A DNA stretch of 42,824 nucleotides from UHGV virus genome UHGV-0137073; one strand, written 5' to 3'. Positions 24,618-28,136 of the stretch are shown one piece after another. The position numbers and the translations under genes were made by a program. Numbering within the stretch: the first letter of the stretch is position 1; the number at the start of each line of letters is the position of its first letter. Source of the DNA: a virus. The notes under the pieces are model-generated. The model did not search any database and had not been told where the DNA came from. It saw nothing but the letters and a program-made list of their open reading frames with translations.

Positions 24618-24968
24618 TTAAAGCCCCATCGCAACAGCCAGACAGACCGCTGCAACAATCAGTGCACGGCGGATTAACGCAGCAGAAAACACCAGGTGAA
24701 GGCCGGTCTGTACCGGGAAACGCCCATCAGCCATCAGCCTGTCGTCATGTTTCAGGTACTGACCGGGACGGGCTTTGGGGAAGAGCGAACGGTCAAGCCA
24801 GTAACCCAGCACTGCTGCCAGCGTGATGAGTGCCAGCTTGTAGATCACAACAGGCAACTGCTGTGGCGAGACCAGAGCGATGGTGCCCAGCAACAGCACT
24901 GAGGTCAGCAGCCAGCCGCTGAGGCGAGGTTTTTTAACAGGGGGAATGAATTTTTTCAGGTTTTTCAT
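24618..24968 (-). CDS. Putative holin (three predicted transmembrane segments)
   Basis: 116 aa from the ATG with strong SD (AAGGAG-N7-ATG); three hydrophobic helices; stop overlaps the endolysin start. Confidence 0.5.
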   Translation of the reverse strand: MKNLKKFIPPVKKPRLSGWLLTSVLLLGTIALVSPQQLPVVIYKLALITLAAVLGYWLDRSLFPKARPGQYLKHDDRLMADGRFPVQTGLHLVFSAALIRRALIVAAVCLAVAMGL

Positions 24969-24994: not shown

Positions 24995-25098
24995 GCATCA
25001 CAAATACAGGGCGCGAAGGATTTTAAAGCGCGTTAAGAGAGCCGGGGATACGGGATGTGCAGGATAAACGATGAATTATTCACAGAGGAGAATACGAT

Positions 25099-25842
25099 AT
25101 GACGCAGACACTGAATCCGGTCATCACTGTCACCGTGTCCGGTCCTGTGGGCAGCGGTAAAAGTTACATATTGGCGCGGATAGAGGAAGTGGTGAAACAG
25201 GAATTCGGGGGCAGCGTCATTGTCGATGCTGCAGACGTAGATGATGAGCGGCGTATGAGTGGCGATGATCTGACGACCTGGCAGAAGCCACGGGGTGGCA
25301 CAGTGATCAGGCTGGAGGAATACACGGGACAGGGCCTGTTGTCATACGGCGAGGAGCGTATCTGTCGGACGAATGAGCTGCTGGATGTTATATGCCCCAC
25401 GGGCCGGCAACCCTGGATACTGCCCGATGCACTGCATGCCACCATTGCGGCACTGATGACAGTTTACGATCAGGAGCTGCTCATGAAGGAGCTACGTAAA
25501 CTCACCGGTCAGCCAACAGAATGTTTTTCTGCCCCGAAGTACGGGAAACAGGAACACATCCCGGTGAACACGCTCCCCGTTAACCAGCCTCCCCGGTTCT
25601 TCGACGAATACATTCTGACACCGGAAAATAAAGCTGAGCACGAAGAGATCAAAGCGGCGTTGTTCCGGGAAATCAGGAAGATTGCTGAAATGCAACTGGG
25701 GGGCGGGCTGGACAGAGTGATGGCGAGAGGAGAATGGGAGTCGCTGTTTGAAAGAGTTTCCCCGGAATTACTTCCCCTCGCACTGGCTATCGGGATTATG
25801 CAGACAGCGGATAAACCTCACTTACGTTCATTAAACACGTAA
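25099..25842 (+). CDS. Hypothetical P-loop NTPase-like protein (accessory gene)
   Basis: Walker A-like GPVGSGKS near the N-terminus; GAGGAG Shine-Dalgarno; divergent from the late operon; no family recognised. Confidence 0.5.
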   Translation: MTQTLNPVITVTVSGPVGSGKSYILARIEEVVKQEFGGSVIVDAADVDDERRMSGDDLTTWQKPRGGTVIRLEEYTGQGLLSYGEERICRTNELLDVICPTGRQPWILPDALHATIAALMTVYDQELLMKELRKLTGQPTECFSAPKYGKQEHIPVNTLPVNQPPRFFDEYILTPENKAEHEEIKAALFREIRKIAEMQLGGGLDRVMARGEWESLFERVSPELLPLALAIGIMQTADKPHLRSLNT

Positions 25843-26222
25843 CGCATAATCCGGGATACGCATTCAGCGATGACTGCATTTTCACCGGTTTTTACTGCAT
25901 CCAGAAGTGACTCTTTAAATGGTGCGGGCCGGGGCTGCAGAAGGGTCGGCGTGGCATTGAGCAGACGGAGCGTTTTTTCCGTGAGGACGACATCAGCCGC
26001 TCCCACAGCCAGCAACTGAGAGTAACGAATATAGCTGTTATCCCGAAGCCATATCAGCGTATCAATAAAATACCGGCACTTTTTCTGGTCGTGATCAACC
26101 TGGTCCGGGATATCGAAAAAACCAGAATAAATCAAAACCTGAGGTGCCGGATGCGTGTTCAGTAATCGGCAGAATATTTTGCCGGTGAGTGCATAAAAAT
26201 CATCATTTAAGGAGTGCATCAT
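25818..26222 (-). CDS. Hypothetical protein (accessory gene, convergent with the P-loop gene)
   Basis: 134-aa ORF exactly fills the gap between two + strand genes; start codon overlaps the divergent start of the next gene. Confidence 0.4.
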   Translation of the reverse strand: MMHSLNDDFYALTGKIFCRLLNTHPAPQVLIYSGFFDIPDQVDHDQKKCRYFIDTLIWLRDNSYIRYSQLLAVGAADVVLTEKTLRLLNATPTLLQPRPAPFKESLLDAVKTGENAVIAECVSRIMRYVFNERK

Positions 26223-26436
26223 GAATCCCCGATTAACGTTAACAGAACATCAGCGCCGTGCTGAAGCAGTGAACAATGTTCTGGAAGATATTATCCGGTT
26301 ACATCGCGGAGAACTGAGTGTCTGTCGTGCCGCTTTTCATTTTCAGGGAATACAAAAGCAGTTTGATACTTCTGTTTTTGCAGAAGGTATTACTTATGCC
26401 CTGGACCGGATAAGGTCAGAAAATCGCCCCGGATAA
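26221..26436 (+). CDS. Hypothetical small protein (accessory gene)
   Basis: 71 aa with strong TAAGGAG Shine-Dalgarno. Confidence 0.45.
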   Translation: MNPRLTLTEHQRRAEAVNNVLEDIIRLHRGELSVCRAAFHFQGIQKQFDTSVFAEGITYALDRIRSENRPG

Positions 26437-26627
26437 TCCCTAAACCACATTAACAGAAATCCCACTATCCCTGCCGCATCATGAAAGAACGACCAGCCCG
26501 GTGCTTCGGACCCACCGGGCTGGCCATCGTCCCACAGAAGTGGCTGTGAGCCGACCGAGGTTCAGTCAGTCTCGCGAGACCAGACTAGCCTGCCATATTT
26601 TTAATAATTGTAAAAGGCTTACAGATT

Positions 26628-27392
26628 ATGAAAATGAAGACATTACCCATCGTTCCATGGATTGGTGGCAAACGTCGCCTGGCAAAACACATCCTGCCGC
26701 TGTTTCCGGCGCATGAATGTTATGTGGAGCCGTTTTGTGGGGCAGCAGCGCTCTATTTTCTTAAGACACCCGGCAAGATCGAAGTCATCAATGATATCAA
26801 CGGTGAACTGGTGAATCTGTACCGGGTGGTAAAGCATCACCTGGAAGAATTTGTCCGCCAGTTCAAATGGGCGCTGGTCAGCCGTCAGATCTACAAATGG
26901 CTGCAGATCACCCCGGAAGAAACACTGACGGATATCCAGCGTGCGGCACGGTTCTACTACCTTCAGAAGCAGGCGTTTGGCGGCAAGGTGGCAGAGCACA
27001 GCTTCGGTACCTCCACCACATCCCCGCCACGCTTCAACCTGCTGCGTATTGAAGAAGAACTGTCAGCAGCACACCTGCGGCTTTCCAGAACAGTCATAGA
27101 ACACATGGACTGGCAACAGTGCATTGAGCGTTATGATCGTCCGCACACACTGTTCTACTGCGACCCACCGTACCTGGGTACGGAAGGCTATGGTGTGGAT
27201 TTTCCTGAAGGGAACTACTCGCGGCTGGCAGAGCTGGCCCGGTGCATCAGAGGAAAAATGATAATTTCGGTGAACGATATCCCACAGATGCGCGAGGTGT
27301 TCACTGGACTGAACATACAGACAGTGAACATCAACTACAGTCTGGCGGGGAAATCTACGCCGCGCCGTGAACTGGTAATCTGCAACTTCTGA
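26628..27392 (+). CDS. DNA adenine methyltransferase (Dam-like, D12 class)
   Basis: N-terminal AdoMet region PWIGGKRRL...FCGAAA and catalytic DPPY motif (CDPPYLGTEGYG). Confidence 0.85.
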   Translation: MKMKTLPIVPWIGGKRRLAKHILPLFPAHECYVEPFCGAAALYFLKTPGKIEVINDINGELVNLYRVVKHHLEEFVRQFKWALVSRQIYKWLQITPEETLTDIQRAARFYYLQKQAFGGKVAEHSFGTSTTSPPRFNLLRIEEELSAAHLRLSRTVIEHMDWQQCIERYDRPHTLFYCDPPYLGTEGYGVDFPEGNYSRLAELARCIRGKMIISVNDIPQMREVFTGLNIQTVNINYSLAGKSTPRRELVICNF

Positions 27393-27399
27393 AACAAAA

Positions 27400-27422
27400 C
27401 CGGAAAGCACAATGCTTTCCGG
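27400..27422 (-). terminator. Putative intrinsic terminator downstream of the repressor gene
   Basis: Perfect 9-bp stem ccggaaagc/gctttccgg with 5-nt loop, T-rich tract on the minus strand. Confidence 0.45.
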
Positions 27423-27508
27423 TAAACCAAACAACTTCCACTATGTCACTGGCGATGTTTTCTGAAAGCATCCAGATCAACCACCTGTCCTTTGTGTCCA
27501 GGTCAAAA

Positions 27509-27847
27509 TCAGCCTGCGAGTTTGCTTGGTTTGGGTTGAATGAAGACTTTGCCGACCTCAAGAATTGCCCTCCGTTGTTCGGGGCTCATTTCGTCGAATG
27601 CATCCATTAACTCTTTCTTTTCTTGTGACACATAAGGTGCAACAACAGGCTGACTCCGCACCCCAGTAACTACATACAAAATATCTACACCGATTTCTGA
27701 TAGTGCAGATAACTGCACTGCAGTAGGAGAAGTGCGATCTTTTTCCCAATCAATGAAAGTTCTCTTTGCCACACCTATAGCATCAGCCAACCCTTGCTGT
27801 GTAAGAGATAGACGCTCTCTTTCTTCTTTAATACGTAACCCGATCAT
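27509..27847 (-). CDS. HTH XRE-family repressor (putative prophage repressor)
   Basis: MIGLRIKEERERLSLTQQGLADAIGVAKRTFIDWEKDR helix-turn-helix; divergent from the ner-like early operon. Confidence 0.7.
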   Translation of the reverse strand: MIGLRIKEERERLSLTQQGLADAIGVAKRTFIDWEKDRTSPTAVQLSALSEIGVDILYVVTGVRSQPVVAPYVSQEKKELMDAFDEMSPEQRRAILEVGKVFIQPKPSKLAG

Positions 27848-27947
27848 GTGAGTTTTTCTGCACTCTTTAAGTTGACTGGTGAGGTAATCTGCACCATAAT
27901 CTATCACACATAAGGCAAACATCATTGCATCAACAAAGGAGACAACG

Positions 27948-28136
27948 ATGACTGCAGAACAAGTCAAAGCTCTCTTCCGCCAGCGCGGGATCACTTTCAC
28001 CCGCTGGGCAGAAGAAAACGGCTACAACCGCAATGAGGTATACCGCGTTCTCAATGGGCAGACCAAAGCCCGTTACGGTAAATCCCATGAAATCGCCGTG
28101 AAGTTGGGGCTGAAATCAACAGCTCAGGCAGCCTGA
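27948..28136 (+). CDS. ner: Ner-like DNA-binding protein (early operon regulator)
   Basis: 62 aa; first gene of the rightward operon; motif pattern ...GITFTRWAEENGY...EIAVKLGL resembles Ner/Nlp proteins. Confidence 0.55.
   Translation: MTAEQVKALFRQRGITFTRWAEENGYNRNEVYRVLNGQTKARYGKSHEIAVKLGLKSTAQAA

What the first reader, a model, noticed from the sequence alone, without database searches (positions are those of the whole stretch)
26628..27392. Orphan Dam-like adenine methyltransferase next to the immunity region of the Mu-like prophage
A D12-class MTase (DPPY motif) is encoded with no adjacent restriction endonuclease, transcribed toward the repressor gene and separated from it by a hairpin (27400-27422). 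An orphan MTase in a transposable phage could protect phage DNA from host restriction or alter host methylation-dependent regulation. Its position differs from Mu mom at the far end of the genome.
Basis: partly seen in the sequence, partly recalled or inferred. Interest (0 to 1): 0.4.

Follow-up and report, generated by a model that had tools for sequence, protein, structure and literature searches.

The report
Prophage orphan methylase with antisense RNA
An E. coli BcepMu-type (Mu-like) prophage carries a stand-alone DNA methylase that is already catalogued (99% identical to M.EcoMIV) and probably shields phage DNA from restriction; what is not catalogued is a conserved structured RNA directly in front of it, which accompanies this gene in about 80% of related phages.

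Summary
ORF 26628-27392(+) encodes a 254-aa D12-class DNA methyltransferase (motif I, DPPY) in a Bcepmuvirus-like transposable prophage of E. coli. It converges on the repressor gene across an 11-bp hairpin. No restriction enzyme lies beside it here, and none recurs beside 80 homologues.

The gene itself is ordinary. It is 99% identical to M.EcoMIV of ST131 strain EC958, which is published, poorly transcribed in the lysogen and has no assigned motif. RefSeq annotates it, and the region occurs in 637 of 5426 complete E. coli genomes.

Three refinements:
- "Dam-like" overstates it. The GATC-reading hairpin signature shared by EcoDam and DpnM is absent, so the specificity is unknown.
- The conserved position is the cargo slot between lysis cassette and immunity region, not the repressor. 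In other Mu-like phages the same family follows a Com homologue, and in phage TJ1 it sits at the genome end, the com-mom layout.
- The hairpin reads as the repressor's terminator.

The unexpected part is a ~120-nt structured element (26477-26595, best read on the minus strand) directly upstream of the start codon. It is found in 136 of 169 searched sources (167 of them family loci), has strong compensatory covariation and matches no Rfam family. It is probably a divergent/antisense regulatory RNA.

The parts
26628..27392 (+). Orphan D12-class (alpha-group) DNA methyltransferase gene, 254 aa. Motif I is around F36-G38 and motif IV is DPPY at residues 179-182. It is 99% identical to M.EcoMIV of EC958 prophage Phi2.
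   Evidence: ORF and translation. Pfam PF02086. TIGR00571 117.4 against 114.85, NF008152 68 against 441. PADLOC MTase_II PDLC03253, E 6e-113. RefSeq annotation. Identity to EC958.
26477..26595 (-). Conserved structured element, a candidate ~100-120-nt RNA encoded opposite to the methylase. It has a 5' hairpin with a palindromic apex (GTCTCGCGAGAC), then a three-way junction. The junction consists of a closing helix GAAC:GUUC (GAGC:GCUC in most relatives), hairpin GCUCACAG..CUGUGGGA, and the 11-bp GC-rich hairpin at 26493-26523. A U-rich tail follows.
   Evidence: Covariance model R1 gives one hit in the window: 86.3 bits, E 2e-18. Covariation. Strand preference. No Rfam family. Hairpin arms. 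5' hairpin statistics.
26587..26595 (-). Candidate extended -10 promoter element of the minus-strand RNA. It reads TGGCAGGCT here; the family consensus is TGnTAGGCT, and A at position 2 and T at position 6 of the hexamer are kept in every variant printed. This is an inference, not a demonstrated promoter.
   Evidence: Consensus of 57 distinct upstream sequences. Alignment A8, in which A5 and T9 are invariant.
26596..26627 (+). 32-nt A/T-rich spacer between the element and the ATG, holding the methylase ribosome-binding site (AAGG at 26614-26617). The segment AAAAGGCTT is invariant in 12 enterobacterial prophages. The spacing between element and start codon is constant across the family.
27399..27423 (-). 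Intrinsic-terminator-like hairpin between the convergent methylase and repressor genes. The U-tract lies on the minus strand, so it is most simply the repressor terminator. It may also stop methylase transcription.
27509..27847 (-). Repressor candidate (HTH_3, DicA/CI-like). RefSeq starts it at 27967, which overlaps the ner-like gene 27948-28136 (+).
25099..26436 (.). Three cargo ORFs of unknown function inserted between holin and methylase: 25099-25842 (+), with a P-loop; 25818-26222 (-); 26221-26436 (+). They are absent from the Photorhabdus, Xenorhabdus and Brenneria relatives, where the methylase module abuts the holin.
   Evidence: PHROGs 3787, 2266 and 4490, all of unknown function. No defence or nuclease match. 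Comparison of contexts.
24618..24968 (-). Holin, the first gene of the leftward lysis and late gene block. It marks the other border of the cargo slot.
   Evidence: Pfam Holin_2-3, E 1.5e-41. RefSeq coordinates.

Best explanation
The gene encodes a stand-alone S-adenosylmethionine-dependent DNA methyltransferase. It belongs to one tightly conserved phage-borne family that also includes M.EcoMIV, Pseudomonas phage B3 ORF48, Burkholderia phiE125 gp27 and KS9 gp25, and Vibrio VP882 gp37. It rides as a self-contained cargo module in the variable slot between the lysis cassette and the immunity region of a BcepMu-type transposable prophage.

Most likely it methylates adenines in replicating phage DNA during lytic growth, so that progeny DNA escapes restriction in the next host. 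That would make it the functional counterpart of Mu Mom.

Its target sequence is probably not read the way Dam reads GATC, and remains unknown.

Expression appears to be kept low in the lysogen. The module carries its own conserved control region: a ~120-nt structured element directly upstream of the start codon. This element is most likely transcribed from the opposite strand as a small divergent/antisense RNA, from an extended -10-type promoter 30-40 nt from the ATG. It would act on the methylase (or com-methylase) leader.

Status of each step:
- Shown here: the gene, its family, its orphan status, the conserved context, and the existence, covariation and linkage of the element.
- Inferred: adenine methylation, the anti-restriction role, timing of expression, transcription of the element, and how the element acts.
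For: Enzyme:
- PF02086 and the TIGR00571 subfamily are matched.
- Motif I and DPPY are invariant.
- Profile matches to DpnM, M.CbeI and EcoDam give E 6e-38 to 7e-33 over the full length.

Family:
- 63-67% identity to proteins of unrelated temperate phages of Pseudomonas, Burkholderia, Vibrio and Curvibacter.
- 677 clusters at E<=1e-30.

Orphan status:
- No endonuclease among the neighbours in the window.
- None in the annotated neighbourhoods of six annotated phage records.
- None among the 25 commonest Pfam families of 139 flanking ORFs.

Mom analogy:
- A Com homologue lies directly upstream in 24 of 80 genome loci, in B3 and in TJ1, where the pair is terminal.
- PMC3299994 notes that B3 has Com plus a methylase in place of Mom.

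Cargo slot:
- 10 of 80 loci show holin(-)..MTase(+)..repressor(-)/ner(+) with variable inserts.
- BcepMu itself holds other genes in that slot.

Silence in the lysogen:
- M.EcoMIV (251/254 identical) is transcribed significantly below dam, and no motif could be assigned to it (PMC4659465).

Not Dam-type reading:
-.

Structured element:
- Found by nhmmer in 58 loci.
- Model R1 hits 67 of 89 and 69 of 80 searched sources (169 in all; two of them, the window and BcepMu, are not fetched family loci). Apart from five weak hits (21-30 bits) on the same strand as the methylase, in loci that also carry a strong hit, every hit lies opposite the methylase and just upstream of it or of com.
- 90.8% of cells are paired against 80.2+-0.5 in shuffles, and 22 of 36 pairs show compensatory change.
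- On a second alignment, 92.3% against 73.7, and 29 of 32 pairs.
- The minus strand folds better in 41 of 43 sequences. Mean z is -4.42 against -3.46, with the minus strand lower in 34 of 43.
- Conserved G.U pairs exist only on the minus strand.
- The TGnTAnnnT motif is conserved at the element's 5' edge.
Against: - No activity, target base or target sequence has been shown for this protein.
- The evidence for adenine rests on family membership and on my recollection that phiE125 gp27 gave N6-methyladenine when cloned (Woods et al. 2002, which I could not read here). M.CbeI, an equally close structural relative with DPPY, is an N4-cytosine enzyme (PMC8616854).
- The homologue in phage phi1026b is expressed in a lysogen (PMC2920897). 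'Silent until lytic growth' may therefore not be general.
- No sigma-70 promoter for the methylase was found.
- Transcription of the element on either strand is unproven. Part of the strand difference in folding energy comes from base composition (shuffled means -41.5 against -33.3).
- The palindromic apex of the 5' hairpin (25 of 31 sequences) is not explained by a simple antisense model.
- The AlphaFold model was too poor to examine the DNA-reading loop (pLDDT 55).
Confidence: 0.6

Rival explanations
1. It is simply a second GATC-specific Dam. That would be redundant with host Dam in E. coli but useful to the same phage family in Dam-less hosts, and it would have no special regulation.
For: - It passes the TIGR00571 'Dam family' subfamily model, narrowly (117.4 against 114.85).
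- The best single-sequence PDB hits are the GATC enzymes DpnM and EcoDam.
- The absence of any extra motif in the EC958 methylome would also fit GATC redundancy.
Against: - It fails the EcoDam equivalog model (68 against 441).
- The hairpin segment that DpnM and EcoDam share (NGL-x-R-x-N...FNVP-x-GRYK) is three residues shorter and unrelated here (FGGKVAEHSFGTSTTSPP).
- The position aligned to EcoDam R124 varies within the family (A, D, T, H, E).
- The non-GATC enzyme M.CbeI scores as well as EcoDam (130 against 117 bits).
- According to PMC4659465, REBASE classes M.EcoMIV as type IIA (asymmetric site), provisionally.
Confidence: 0.2
2. It acts mainly in the lysogen, as an epigenetic regulator of prophage or host promoters. 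One possibility is that it helps to maintain lysogeny by methylating the early or immunity region next to it.
For: - It sits 116 bp from the repressor gene and converges on it.
- A prophage methylase (gp51) of B. cenocepacia H111 is reported as essential for keeping its phage lysogenic (bioRxiv 10.1101/2020.03.09.983379).
- The phi1026b homologue is expressed in a lysogen.
Against: - Proximity to the repressor is not conserved (about 50 bp to about 3.4 kb to the detected repressor match in relatives). Most family members sit behind lysis or tail genes, or at the genome end with Com.
- In EC958 the gene is poorly transcribed and leaves no motif.
- The relation of H111 gp51 to this family was not tested.
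Confidence: 0.15
3. The conserved upstream element works on the plus strand as a structured 5' leader of the methylase mRNA. It would be a translational attenuator or ligand/protein-sensing riboregulator that alternately hides and frees the ribosome-binding site, rather than a separately transcribed minus-strand RNA.
For: - It is always directly upstream of the regulated gene at fixed spacing.
- The plus strand is also significantly structured (mean z -3.46; RNAalifold gives 14 of 17 pairs with compensatory change).
- AGCCT at the element's 3' edge on the plus strand is complementary to the Shine-Dalgarno segment AGGCT (89% of cells paired, helix 1).
Against: - The minus strand is more stable in 41 of 43 sequences and has the lower z in 34 of 43.
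- Many positions alternate G.U with G-C or A-U on the minus strand, which would be C.A mismatches on the plus strand.
- Several Com-type loci (L039, L057, L063, L074) have TAAACT in place of TAGGCT, which is no longer AGGCT, yet keeps the TAnnnT pattern.
- Helix 1 shows almost no covariation.
Confidence: 0.25
4. The enzyme is an N4-cytosine methyltransferase rather than an adenine methyltransferase.
For: M.CbeI (PDB 7M6B) is an alpha-class enzyme with a DPPY motif that makes N4-methylcytosine. It is the second-best structural relative of the family profile (E 6.8e-37), and its recognition loop has the same length.
Against: - Nearly all characterised members of PF02086/TIGR00571 are adenine enzymes.
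- A 65%-identical homologue (phiE125 gp27) was, as I recall, shown to give N6-methyladenine (not verified here).
- Identity to M.CbeI is low.
Confidence: 0.05

Closest known systems
M.EcoMIV (EC958_1101), orphan methylase of prophage Phi2 of E. coli ST131 EC958 (Forde et al. 2015, PMC4659465)
   Same: - 251 of 254 residues are identical.
- The BcepMu-type prophage and the neighbouring genes are the same.
- The upstream structured element is the same (90.9 bits).
   Different: Nothing of substance; it is an allele in another strain. The paper reports low transcription and no motif. It does not mention the upstream element or the Com-linked relatives.
Pseudomonas phage B3 ORF48 'Dam' with ORF47 Com (Braid et al. 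2004; GenBank AF232233)
   Same: - 63% identical protein in a Mu-like transposable phage.
- The structured element is present upstream (L002 3705-3822, 61.4 bits).
   Different: - B3 has a Com translational-regulator gene overlapping the methylase start. The window has none (best tblastn E 0.2-0.8).
- In B3 the pair lies among the tail genes.
Phage Mu com-mom operon
   Same: - It is a DNA-modification gene of a transposable phage under unusually tight, multi-layer control.
- Relatives of this methylase follow a Com homologue; in phage TJ1 the pair is terminal, where Mu carries mom.
   Different: - Mom is an unrelated enzyme that makes N6-acetamido-adenine (PMC3299994).
- Here the gene lies mid-genome, without Com and on the strand opposite the late genes.
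- Control by C, Dam/OxyR and Com is not evident. A structured RNA element is found instead.
Hia5 / Hin1523 / Nma1821, non-specific adenine methyltransferases at the mom position of FluMu-type prophages (Drozdz et al. 2012, PMC3299994)
   Same: They are orphan Dam-fold enzymes of Mu-like prophages with a divergent recognition region, proposed to act as broad anti-restriction devices.
   Different: It is a different sequence family. The paper states that B3 ORF48 was not among the 1000 closest relatives of Hia5. Whether the present family is also relaxed in specificity is unknown.
EcoDam, T4 Dam, DpnM (GATC adenine methyltransferases with solved structures)
   Same: Same fold and motif order. 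Full-length profile alignment gives E 6e-38 to 1e-11.
   Different: - The GATC-reading hairpin signature is absent and the loop is three residues shorter.
- The EcoDam equivalog model is not met.
Small cis-encoded phage and plasmid antisense RNAs (lambda OOP, P22 sar, IS10 RNA-OUT, plasmid ctRNAs such as Rfam RF00236 ctRNA_pGA1)
   Same: It is a short, highly structured RNA encoded opposite the 5' region of the gene it would control, with its own promoter-like element and a terminator-like end. Three loci give sub-threshold ctRNA_pGA1 hits on that strand (27-36 bits).
   Different: - No Rfam family reaches its threshold (gathering score 45).
- The architecture is a three-way junction plus a hairpin with a palindromic apex.
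- Transcription and any overlap with the methylase mRNA are unproven.

Membership tests
D12-class (alpha-group) DNA methyltransferases, Pfam PF02086 | Profile match above the curated threshold over the whole domain | tested here: met
   102 bits against a cutoff of 22, residues 11-234. PHROG 56, E 6e-101.
D12-class (alpha-group) DNA methyltransferases, Pfam PF02086 | AdoMet-binding motif I (FxGxG-type) near the N-terminus and catalytic motif IV (D/N)PP(Y/F) after the recognition region (alpha order) | tested here: met
   EPFCGAAALYF (F36, G38) and D179-P-P-Y182 are invariant in 40 relatives. They align to the same motifs of EcoDam and DpnM.
D12-class (alpha-group) DNA methyltransferases, Pfam PF02086 | Transfers methyl to adenine N6 in DNA | not testable with these tools
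   An alpha-class DPPY enzyme can be an N4-cytosine methylase (M.CbeI).
Dam proper (GATC-specific; EcoDam/T4 Dam/DpnM) | Equivalog-level sequence match (NCBIfam NF008152) | tested here: not met
   68.3 bits against a cutoff of 441. Only the broad subfamily TIGR00571 is passed, narrowly (117.4 against 114.85).
Dam proper (GATC-specific; EcoDam/T4 Dam/DpnM) | Recognition hairpin with the residues that read GATC. From the published EcoDam-DNA structures, as I recall them, these are EcoDam L122, R124 and P134. The shared signature is NGLxRxN...FNVPxGRYK. | tested here: not met
   In the profile alignment they align to K120, A122 and S129 (S132 in the ungapped single-sequence alignment). The loop is 3 residues shorter. 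The R124-equivalent varies in the family.
Type II restriction-modification system (methylase with cognate endonuclease) | Endonuclease gene adjacent, here or in homologues | tested here: not met
   The window neighbours have no nuclease match. Six annotated phage records have none. Among 139 flanking ORFs from 77 of the genome loci, no restriction family is among the 25 most frequent (families seen only once beyond that list were not shown).
Mu-type com-mom modification module | Com zinc-finger translational activator immediately upstream | tested here: not met
   There is no Com-like sequence in the window (best E 0.23). Com is present in 24 of 80 relatives.
Mu-type com-mom modification module | [quoted passage not shown] | tested here: not met
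   The enzyme is a D12 methylase, not Mom. The gene lies mid-prophage, between the holin and the repressor.
Hia5/Hin1523 non-specific adenine methyltransferases | Sequence membership in that family | not tested
   No Hia5 sequence was available here. PMC3299994 reports that B3 ORF48 (63% identical to this protein) falls outside the 1000 nearest relatives of Hia5.
Any described RNA family (Rfam 15) | Covariance-model match at or above the gathering score for the element at 26477-26595 | tested here: not met
   Nothing relevant at E<=10 in the window. In 14 related loci only ctRNA_pGA1 appears, at 27-36 bits against 45.
Cis-encoded antisense regulatory RNA | Conserved secondary structure supported by compensatory changes on the proposed strand | tested here: met
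   (0 of 500 shuffles reach the observed values; slid controls give 31-52% paired). Strand.
Cis-encoded antisense regulatory RNA | Own promoter and terminator, transcript detected, overlap with the target mRNA | tested here: inconclusive
   A conserved TGnTAnnnT motif and a U-rich tail are present. There are no expression data, and the methylase promoter was not located.

The most novel reading that the evidence does not exclude
The ~120-nt element at 26477-26595 is a previously undescribed small RNA, transcribed divergently/antisense from an extended -10 promoter. It would be the ancestral, family-wide switch of this widespread phage methylase module, with Com added in some lineages. It would keep a potentially promiscuous, non-GATC adenine methylase silent in lysogens and release it during lytic growth.
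Probability: 0.4. Interest if true: 0.65.

Novelty: new variant of a known kind. Interest (0 to 1): 0.4.

Why it matters
The methylase alone adds little. It is a catalogued orphan enzyme found in about one in nine complete E. coli genomes.

Two things would matter if confirmed.

1. Specificity. The family is among the most widely shared cargo genes of temperate phages of Proteobacteria, yet as of 2015 no close homologue had an assigned specificity. Its recognition loop is not Dam-like. A new or relaxed specificity would be relevant to phage escape from restriction, to reading bacterial methylomes, and possibly as a tool enzyme, as Hia5 and M.EcoGII became.

2. Regulation. The tightly linked structured element offers a concrete, testable explanation for why such prophage methylases appear silent in methylome studies. 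It would add an RNA-based counterpart to the classic Com/C/Dam control of Mu mom.

Tried and rejected
- AlphaFold2 on a 40-sequence alignment gave mean pLDDT 55, with the recognition region below 50. I did not use the model and ran no fold search.
- The second homologue search, with a mixed profile, returned only 83-88% enterobacterial relatives. A third search with non-enterobacterial sequences was needed for diversity.
- My recollection that PDB 7M6B was the GTWWAC enzyme M.BceJIV was wrong. It is M.CbeI, an N4-cytosine enzyme.
- Papers on phiE125 (Woods 2002) and VP882 (Lan 2009), which may hold activity data, are not in the library. The Ralstonia methylome paper was irrelevant.
- Two 50-kb reads of EC958 missed Phi2 before the right region was found.
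- A Com remnant in the window: none.
- A sigma-70 promoter for the methylase: none.
- A shared 11-mer between the methylase 3' end and the early promoter (GGTAATCTGCA) is within chance expectation for 3.4 kb, so I dropped it.
- The 'D12-methyl' RNA motif that I recalled from Weinberg et al. 2017 could not be traced in the library or its supplements. No Rfam model matched.
- I considered hammerhead or other ribozyme cores by eye. They did not fit, and Rfam agrees.
- I also considered reading the palindromic hairpin apex as a binding site for a Mor/C-type activator. This is unlikely, because the element is equally present in lambda-like and P2/N15-like phages (KS9, phiE125, VP882), where no such activator was seen in the regions examined.
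Full report
**1. What is there**

The ORF 26628-27392 (+) is real. It starts at the first ATG after a stop and encodes 254 aa. RefSeq annotates the identical coordinates as 'DNA adenine methylase' WP_001573937.1.

- It matches Pfam PF02086 (D12-class methyltransferase) at 102 bits against a cutoff of 22.
- It matches PHROG 56 at E 6e-101 and a PADLOC type II methylase model at E 6e-113.
- Motif I (F36, G38) and DPPY (179-182) are invariant across 40 relatives.

The 11-bp perfect hairpin at 27399-27423 is also real. It folds at -17.6 to -17.9 kcal/mol, and none of 200 shuffles is as stable.

**2. Setting**

The window is E. coli chromosome carrying a BcepMu-type transposable prophage.

- Rightward early genes: a BcepMu gp16-family ner-like gene, an IclR-type HTH, DUF3102, an rve transposase, an ExeA-family protein (BcepMu's counterpart is annotated as its DNA transposition protein), Gam, GemA-like and Mor.
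- Leftward lysis and structural genes, starting with the holin at 24618-24968.

The 4.5 kb around the gene occurs in 637 of 5426 complete E. coli genomes. Phage PhiKM (Bcepmuvirus) encodes a 98.8% identical protein.

The methylase lies between the two divergent gene blocks, on the strand opposite the late genes. It converges on the repressor gene (27509-27847, HTH_3/DicA-like).

The hairpin's U-tract is on the minus strand (UUUUGUUU), so it is best read as the repressor terminator.

**3. Already known**

EC958 prophage Phi2 has the same gene order and a protein 251/254 identical. This is M.EcoMIV of Forde et al. 2015. That paper reports the following (PMC4659465):

- It is a D12-class orphan methylase.
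- It is transcribed significantly below dam in LB.
- No methylation pattern could be assigned to it.
- No recognition site was known for any homologue above 65% identity.

So the gene is catalogued, and in the one lysogen studied it is essentially silent.

**4. Family and orphan status**

Relatives at 63-67% identity sit in unrelated temperate phages:

- Pseudomonas B3 (ORF48)
- Burkholderia KS9, phiE125 and phi1026b
- Vibrio VP882
- Curvibacter TJ1

The recognition region is nearly invariant among them. An exhaustive search finds 677 clusters at E<=1e-30.

None of the neighbours is a restriction enzyme:

- In the window.
- In six annotated phage records.
- Among 139 ORFs flanking the gene in 77 of the genome loci. 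The commonest families there are terminase, tail fibre, sheath and capsid proteins, plus host housekeeping genes.

**5. Position**

Ten of the 80 genome loci are BcepMu-type. All are enterobacterial, with proteins at 81-87% identity. All have holin(-)..methylase(+)..repressor(-)/ner(+).

- The gap from holin to methylase ranges from about 170 bp to about 1.1 kb.
- The gap from the methylase to the detected repressor match ranges from about 50 bp to about 3.4 kb.

The conserved feature is the cargo slot, not the repressor. BcepMu itself carries other genes in that slot.

In the window, three ORFs of unknown function (25099-26436) separate holin and methylase. In Photorhabdus, Xenorhabdus and Brenneria the methylase module abuts the holin.

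Elsewhere the gene follows lysis or tail genes. In 24 of 80 loci it directly follows a homologue of Mu Com.

In the complete Mu-like phage TJ1, a Com-like ORF (PHROG 6417, E 1.5e-12) and the methylase are the last two genes of the genome. In 13 of 80 IMG/VR contigs the gene is the last thing on the contig. Host genes flank it in several genomes.

This matches the com-mom layout, and it is the main indirect support for an anti-restriction role. The window has no Com.

**6. Not Dam in the narrow sense**

- The EcoDam equivalog model fails (68 bits against 441). Only the broad subfamily model passes, by 2.5 bits.
- In the HMMER alignments, the GATC enzymes DpnM and EcoDam share NGL-x-R-x-N...FNVP-x-GRYK.
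- The query has FGGKVAEHSFGTSTTSPP, and the family profile needs a 3-residue deletion there.
- The position aligned to EcoDam R124 varies within the family (A, D, T, H, E).
- That R124, L122 and P134 read GATC is my recollection of the EcoDam-DNA structures, not a result obtained here.
- The family profile matches M.CbeI (7M6B) as well as it matches EcoDam. M.CbeI is an N4-cytosine enzyme with DPPY, so even the target base is inferred rather than shown.
- I recall that cloned phiE125 gp27 produced N6-methyladenine (Woods et al. 2002), but I could not read that paper.

The AlphaFold model was unusable.

**7. The unexpected element**

Aligning the 260 nt upstream of the gene in 12 enterobacterial prophages showed that about 150 nt before the ATG are conserved, with arms of inverted repeats changing in step.

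*Distribution*
- A DNA profile found the element in 58 loci, including VP882 and Com-type loci, where it lies upstream of com.
- A covariance model built from 31 sequences hits 67 of 89 and 69 of 80 searched sources. That is 136 of 169, of which 167 are family loci.
- Apart from five weak hits (21-30 bits) on the same strand as the methylase, in loci that also carry a strong hit, every hit is on the strand opposite the methylase. The strong hits lie about 32 nt from the start codon of the methylase or of com.
- The hits include B3, KS9, phiE125, VP882, PhiKM, KP12 and EC958.
- The window has exactly one hit: 26477-26595, 86.3 bits, E 2e-18.

*Structure*
- RNAalifold and pair counts support a three-way junction: a closing helix and two hairpins, one of which is the 11-bp hairpin at 26493-26523.
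- On a MAFFT alignment, 90.8% of cells pair against 80.2+-0.5 in shuffles and 31-48% in slid controls. 22 of 36 pairs show changes on both sides.
- On the model-based alignment of the viral set, the figures are 92.3% against 73.7%, and 29 of 32 pairs.
- A further 5' hairpin is present in all 31 sequences. In 25 of them it has a perfect 6-16-nt palindrome at its tip.
- No Rfam family matches. Only sub-threshold ctRNA_pGA1 hits appear on the minus strand in three loci.

**8. Which strand**

- The minus strand folds more stably in 41 of 43 sequences (mean -57.2 against -44.9 kcal/mol).
- Part of this difference is base composition. The z-scores still favour the minus strand: -4.42 against -3.46, lower in 34 of 43, Wilcoxon p about 1e-6.
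- For the window, the figures are -64.4 kcal/mol (z -4.6) against -48.3 (z -2.6).
- Several positions are conserved G.U pairs, or alternate G.U with G-C or A-U, on the minus strand. These would be C.A mismatches on the plus strand.
- At the 5' edge of the element on the minus strand, TGnTAGGCT is conserved. The variants TAAACT, TAGAAT, TAGACT, TACGCT, CAGGCT and CATACT (and every other variant printed) all keep A2 and T6. This is the pattern of an extended -10 promoter.
- The 3' side ends in a pyrimidine/U-rich tail.

My reading is a small RNA transcribed away from the methylase start. It would be antisense to the methylase leader if that mRNA begins further upstream. No sigma-70 promoter for the methylase was found, and none of this is expression data.

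A plus-strand leader that alternately pairs AGCCU with the Shine-Dalgarno segment AGGCU remains a live rival.

**9. Mechanism proposed**

- Shown: an orphan D12 methylase of a conserved phage family. It forms a self-contained module of structured element, 32-nt spacer with ribosome-binding site, and gene. The module moves between phage types and, in BcepMu-type prophages, sits in the cargo slot.
- Inferred: the enzyme methylates adenines at an unknown, probably non-GATC target during lytic growth, protecting progeny DNA from restriction as Mom does for Mu.
- Inferred: the element, with Com in some lineages, keeps it off in the lysogen. This is consistent with EC958, though the phi1026b homologue is expressed in a lysogen.
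- Less likely: a lysogen-phase epigenetic role, as reported for another prophage methylase in B. cenocepacia H111.

**10. Verdict**

The finding as written is correct but describes a known, annotated gene, and 'Dam-like' overstates what can be said about its specificity.

The linked structured element is, as far as Rfam 15 and the searchable literature show, undescribed. It is the part worth following up.

Noticed in passing
window 26477-26595 (minus strand); also L002 3705-3822, L007 3849-3965, L008/L009 3849-3968, L172 1637-1753: A conserved ~120-nt structured element lies directly upstream of the methylase (or of com) in 136 of 169 searched sources, with strong compensatory covariation and no Rfam match. 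In B3 it underlies the tiny annotated ORFs 45/46. In VP882 it underlies the annotated gp36, which are therefore probably not genes.
   Followed up: yes
window 25021-25039, 26224-26247, 26435-26458: The motif TTTTAAAGCGCGTTAAGAG lies in the holin/ORF-247 intergenic region. It matches the sequence next to the holin in Photorhabdus, Xenorhabdus, Mixta and Brenneria prophages. On the minus strand it offers a TAAAAT -10, so it may be the late lysis promoter. Two degenerate copies form a 211-bp-spaced direct repeat that exactly brackets the 71-aa ORF 26221-26436, as if cargo genes had been inserted at this motif.
   Followed up: partly
window 25099-25842 (+), 25818-26222 (-), 26221-26436 (+): Three cargo ORFs of unknown function (PHROGs 3787, 2266, 4490). 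The first has a Walker-A P-loop (GPVGSGKS) and nothing else recognisable. The second and third start back-to-back, with start codons overlapping by 2 nt on opposite strands.
   Followed up: partly
window 27509-28000 and 27948-28136: RefSeq starts the repressor at 27967, so that it overlaps the divergent ner-like gene by 20 nt. The HTH domain begins only at the Met at 27847, and a TTGACT-17-CATAAT early promoter sits at 27872-27900 inside the longer reading frame. The shorter repressor start looks more likely.
   Followed up: no
L107 (IMG/VR contig) about 2957-2975, spacer between element and methylase: One relative has an insertion (GCCATGCTGGCATTGTTTTT) that creates a small hairpin plus T-run in the otherwise constant spacer.
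   Followed up: no
P0322, P0336, P0341, P0348, P0374 and others: Proteins of 800-2500 aa contain two to four tandem copies of this methylase domain at about 30-35% identity. These are giant multi-methylase proteins of unknown origin.
   Followed up: no
phage records OR820920.1 and OM835952.1: A 'Bacillus phage vB_BpuM-ZY1' record encodes a 65%-identical copy of this proteobacterial phage methylase. The BcepMu-like 'Klebsiella phage KP12 clone KP12_2' is filed under Vequintavirinae. Both look like host or taxonomy mislabels, or mixed assemblies.
   Followed up: no
L001 (phage PhiKM) 29341-29908: PhiKM annotates the methylase 30 codons longer than the window allows. It has no annotated repressor between the methylase and the ner-like gene, only a 41-aa ORF, so its immunity region may differ or be truncated.
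   Followed up: no
P4' hairpin, window about 26563-26585, and equivalents in 31 relatives: The tip of the element's 5' hairpin is a perfect palindrome in 25 of 31 sequences. The palindrome differs between lineages: GTCTCGCGAGAC, GTCATCGATGAC, GTTCTCGAGAAC, CGTCGACG, GTGCAC, GCGATCGC, ATGGCCAT. An ordinary RNA hairpin does not need this, and I have no explanation for it.
   Followed up: partly
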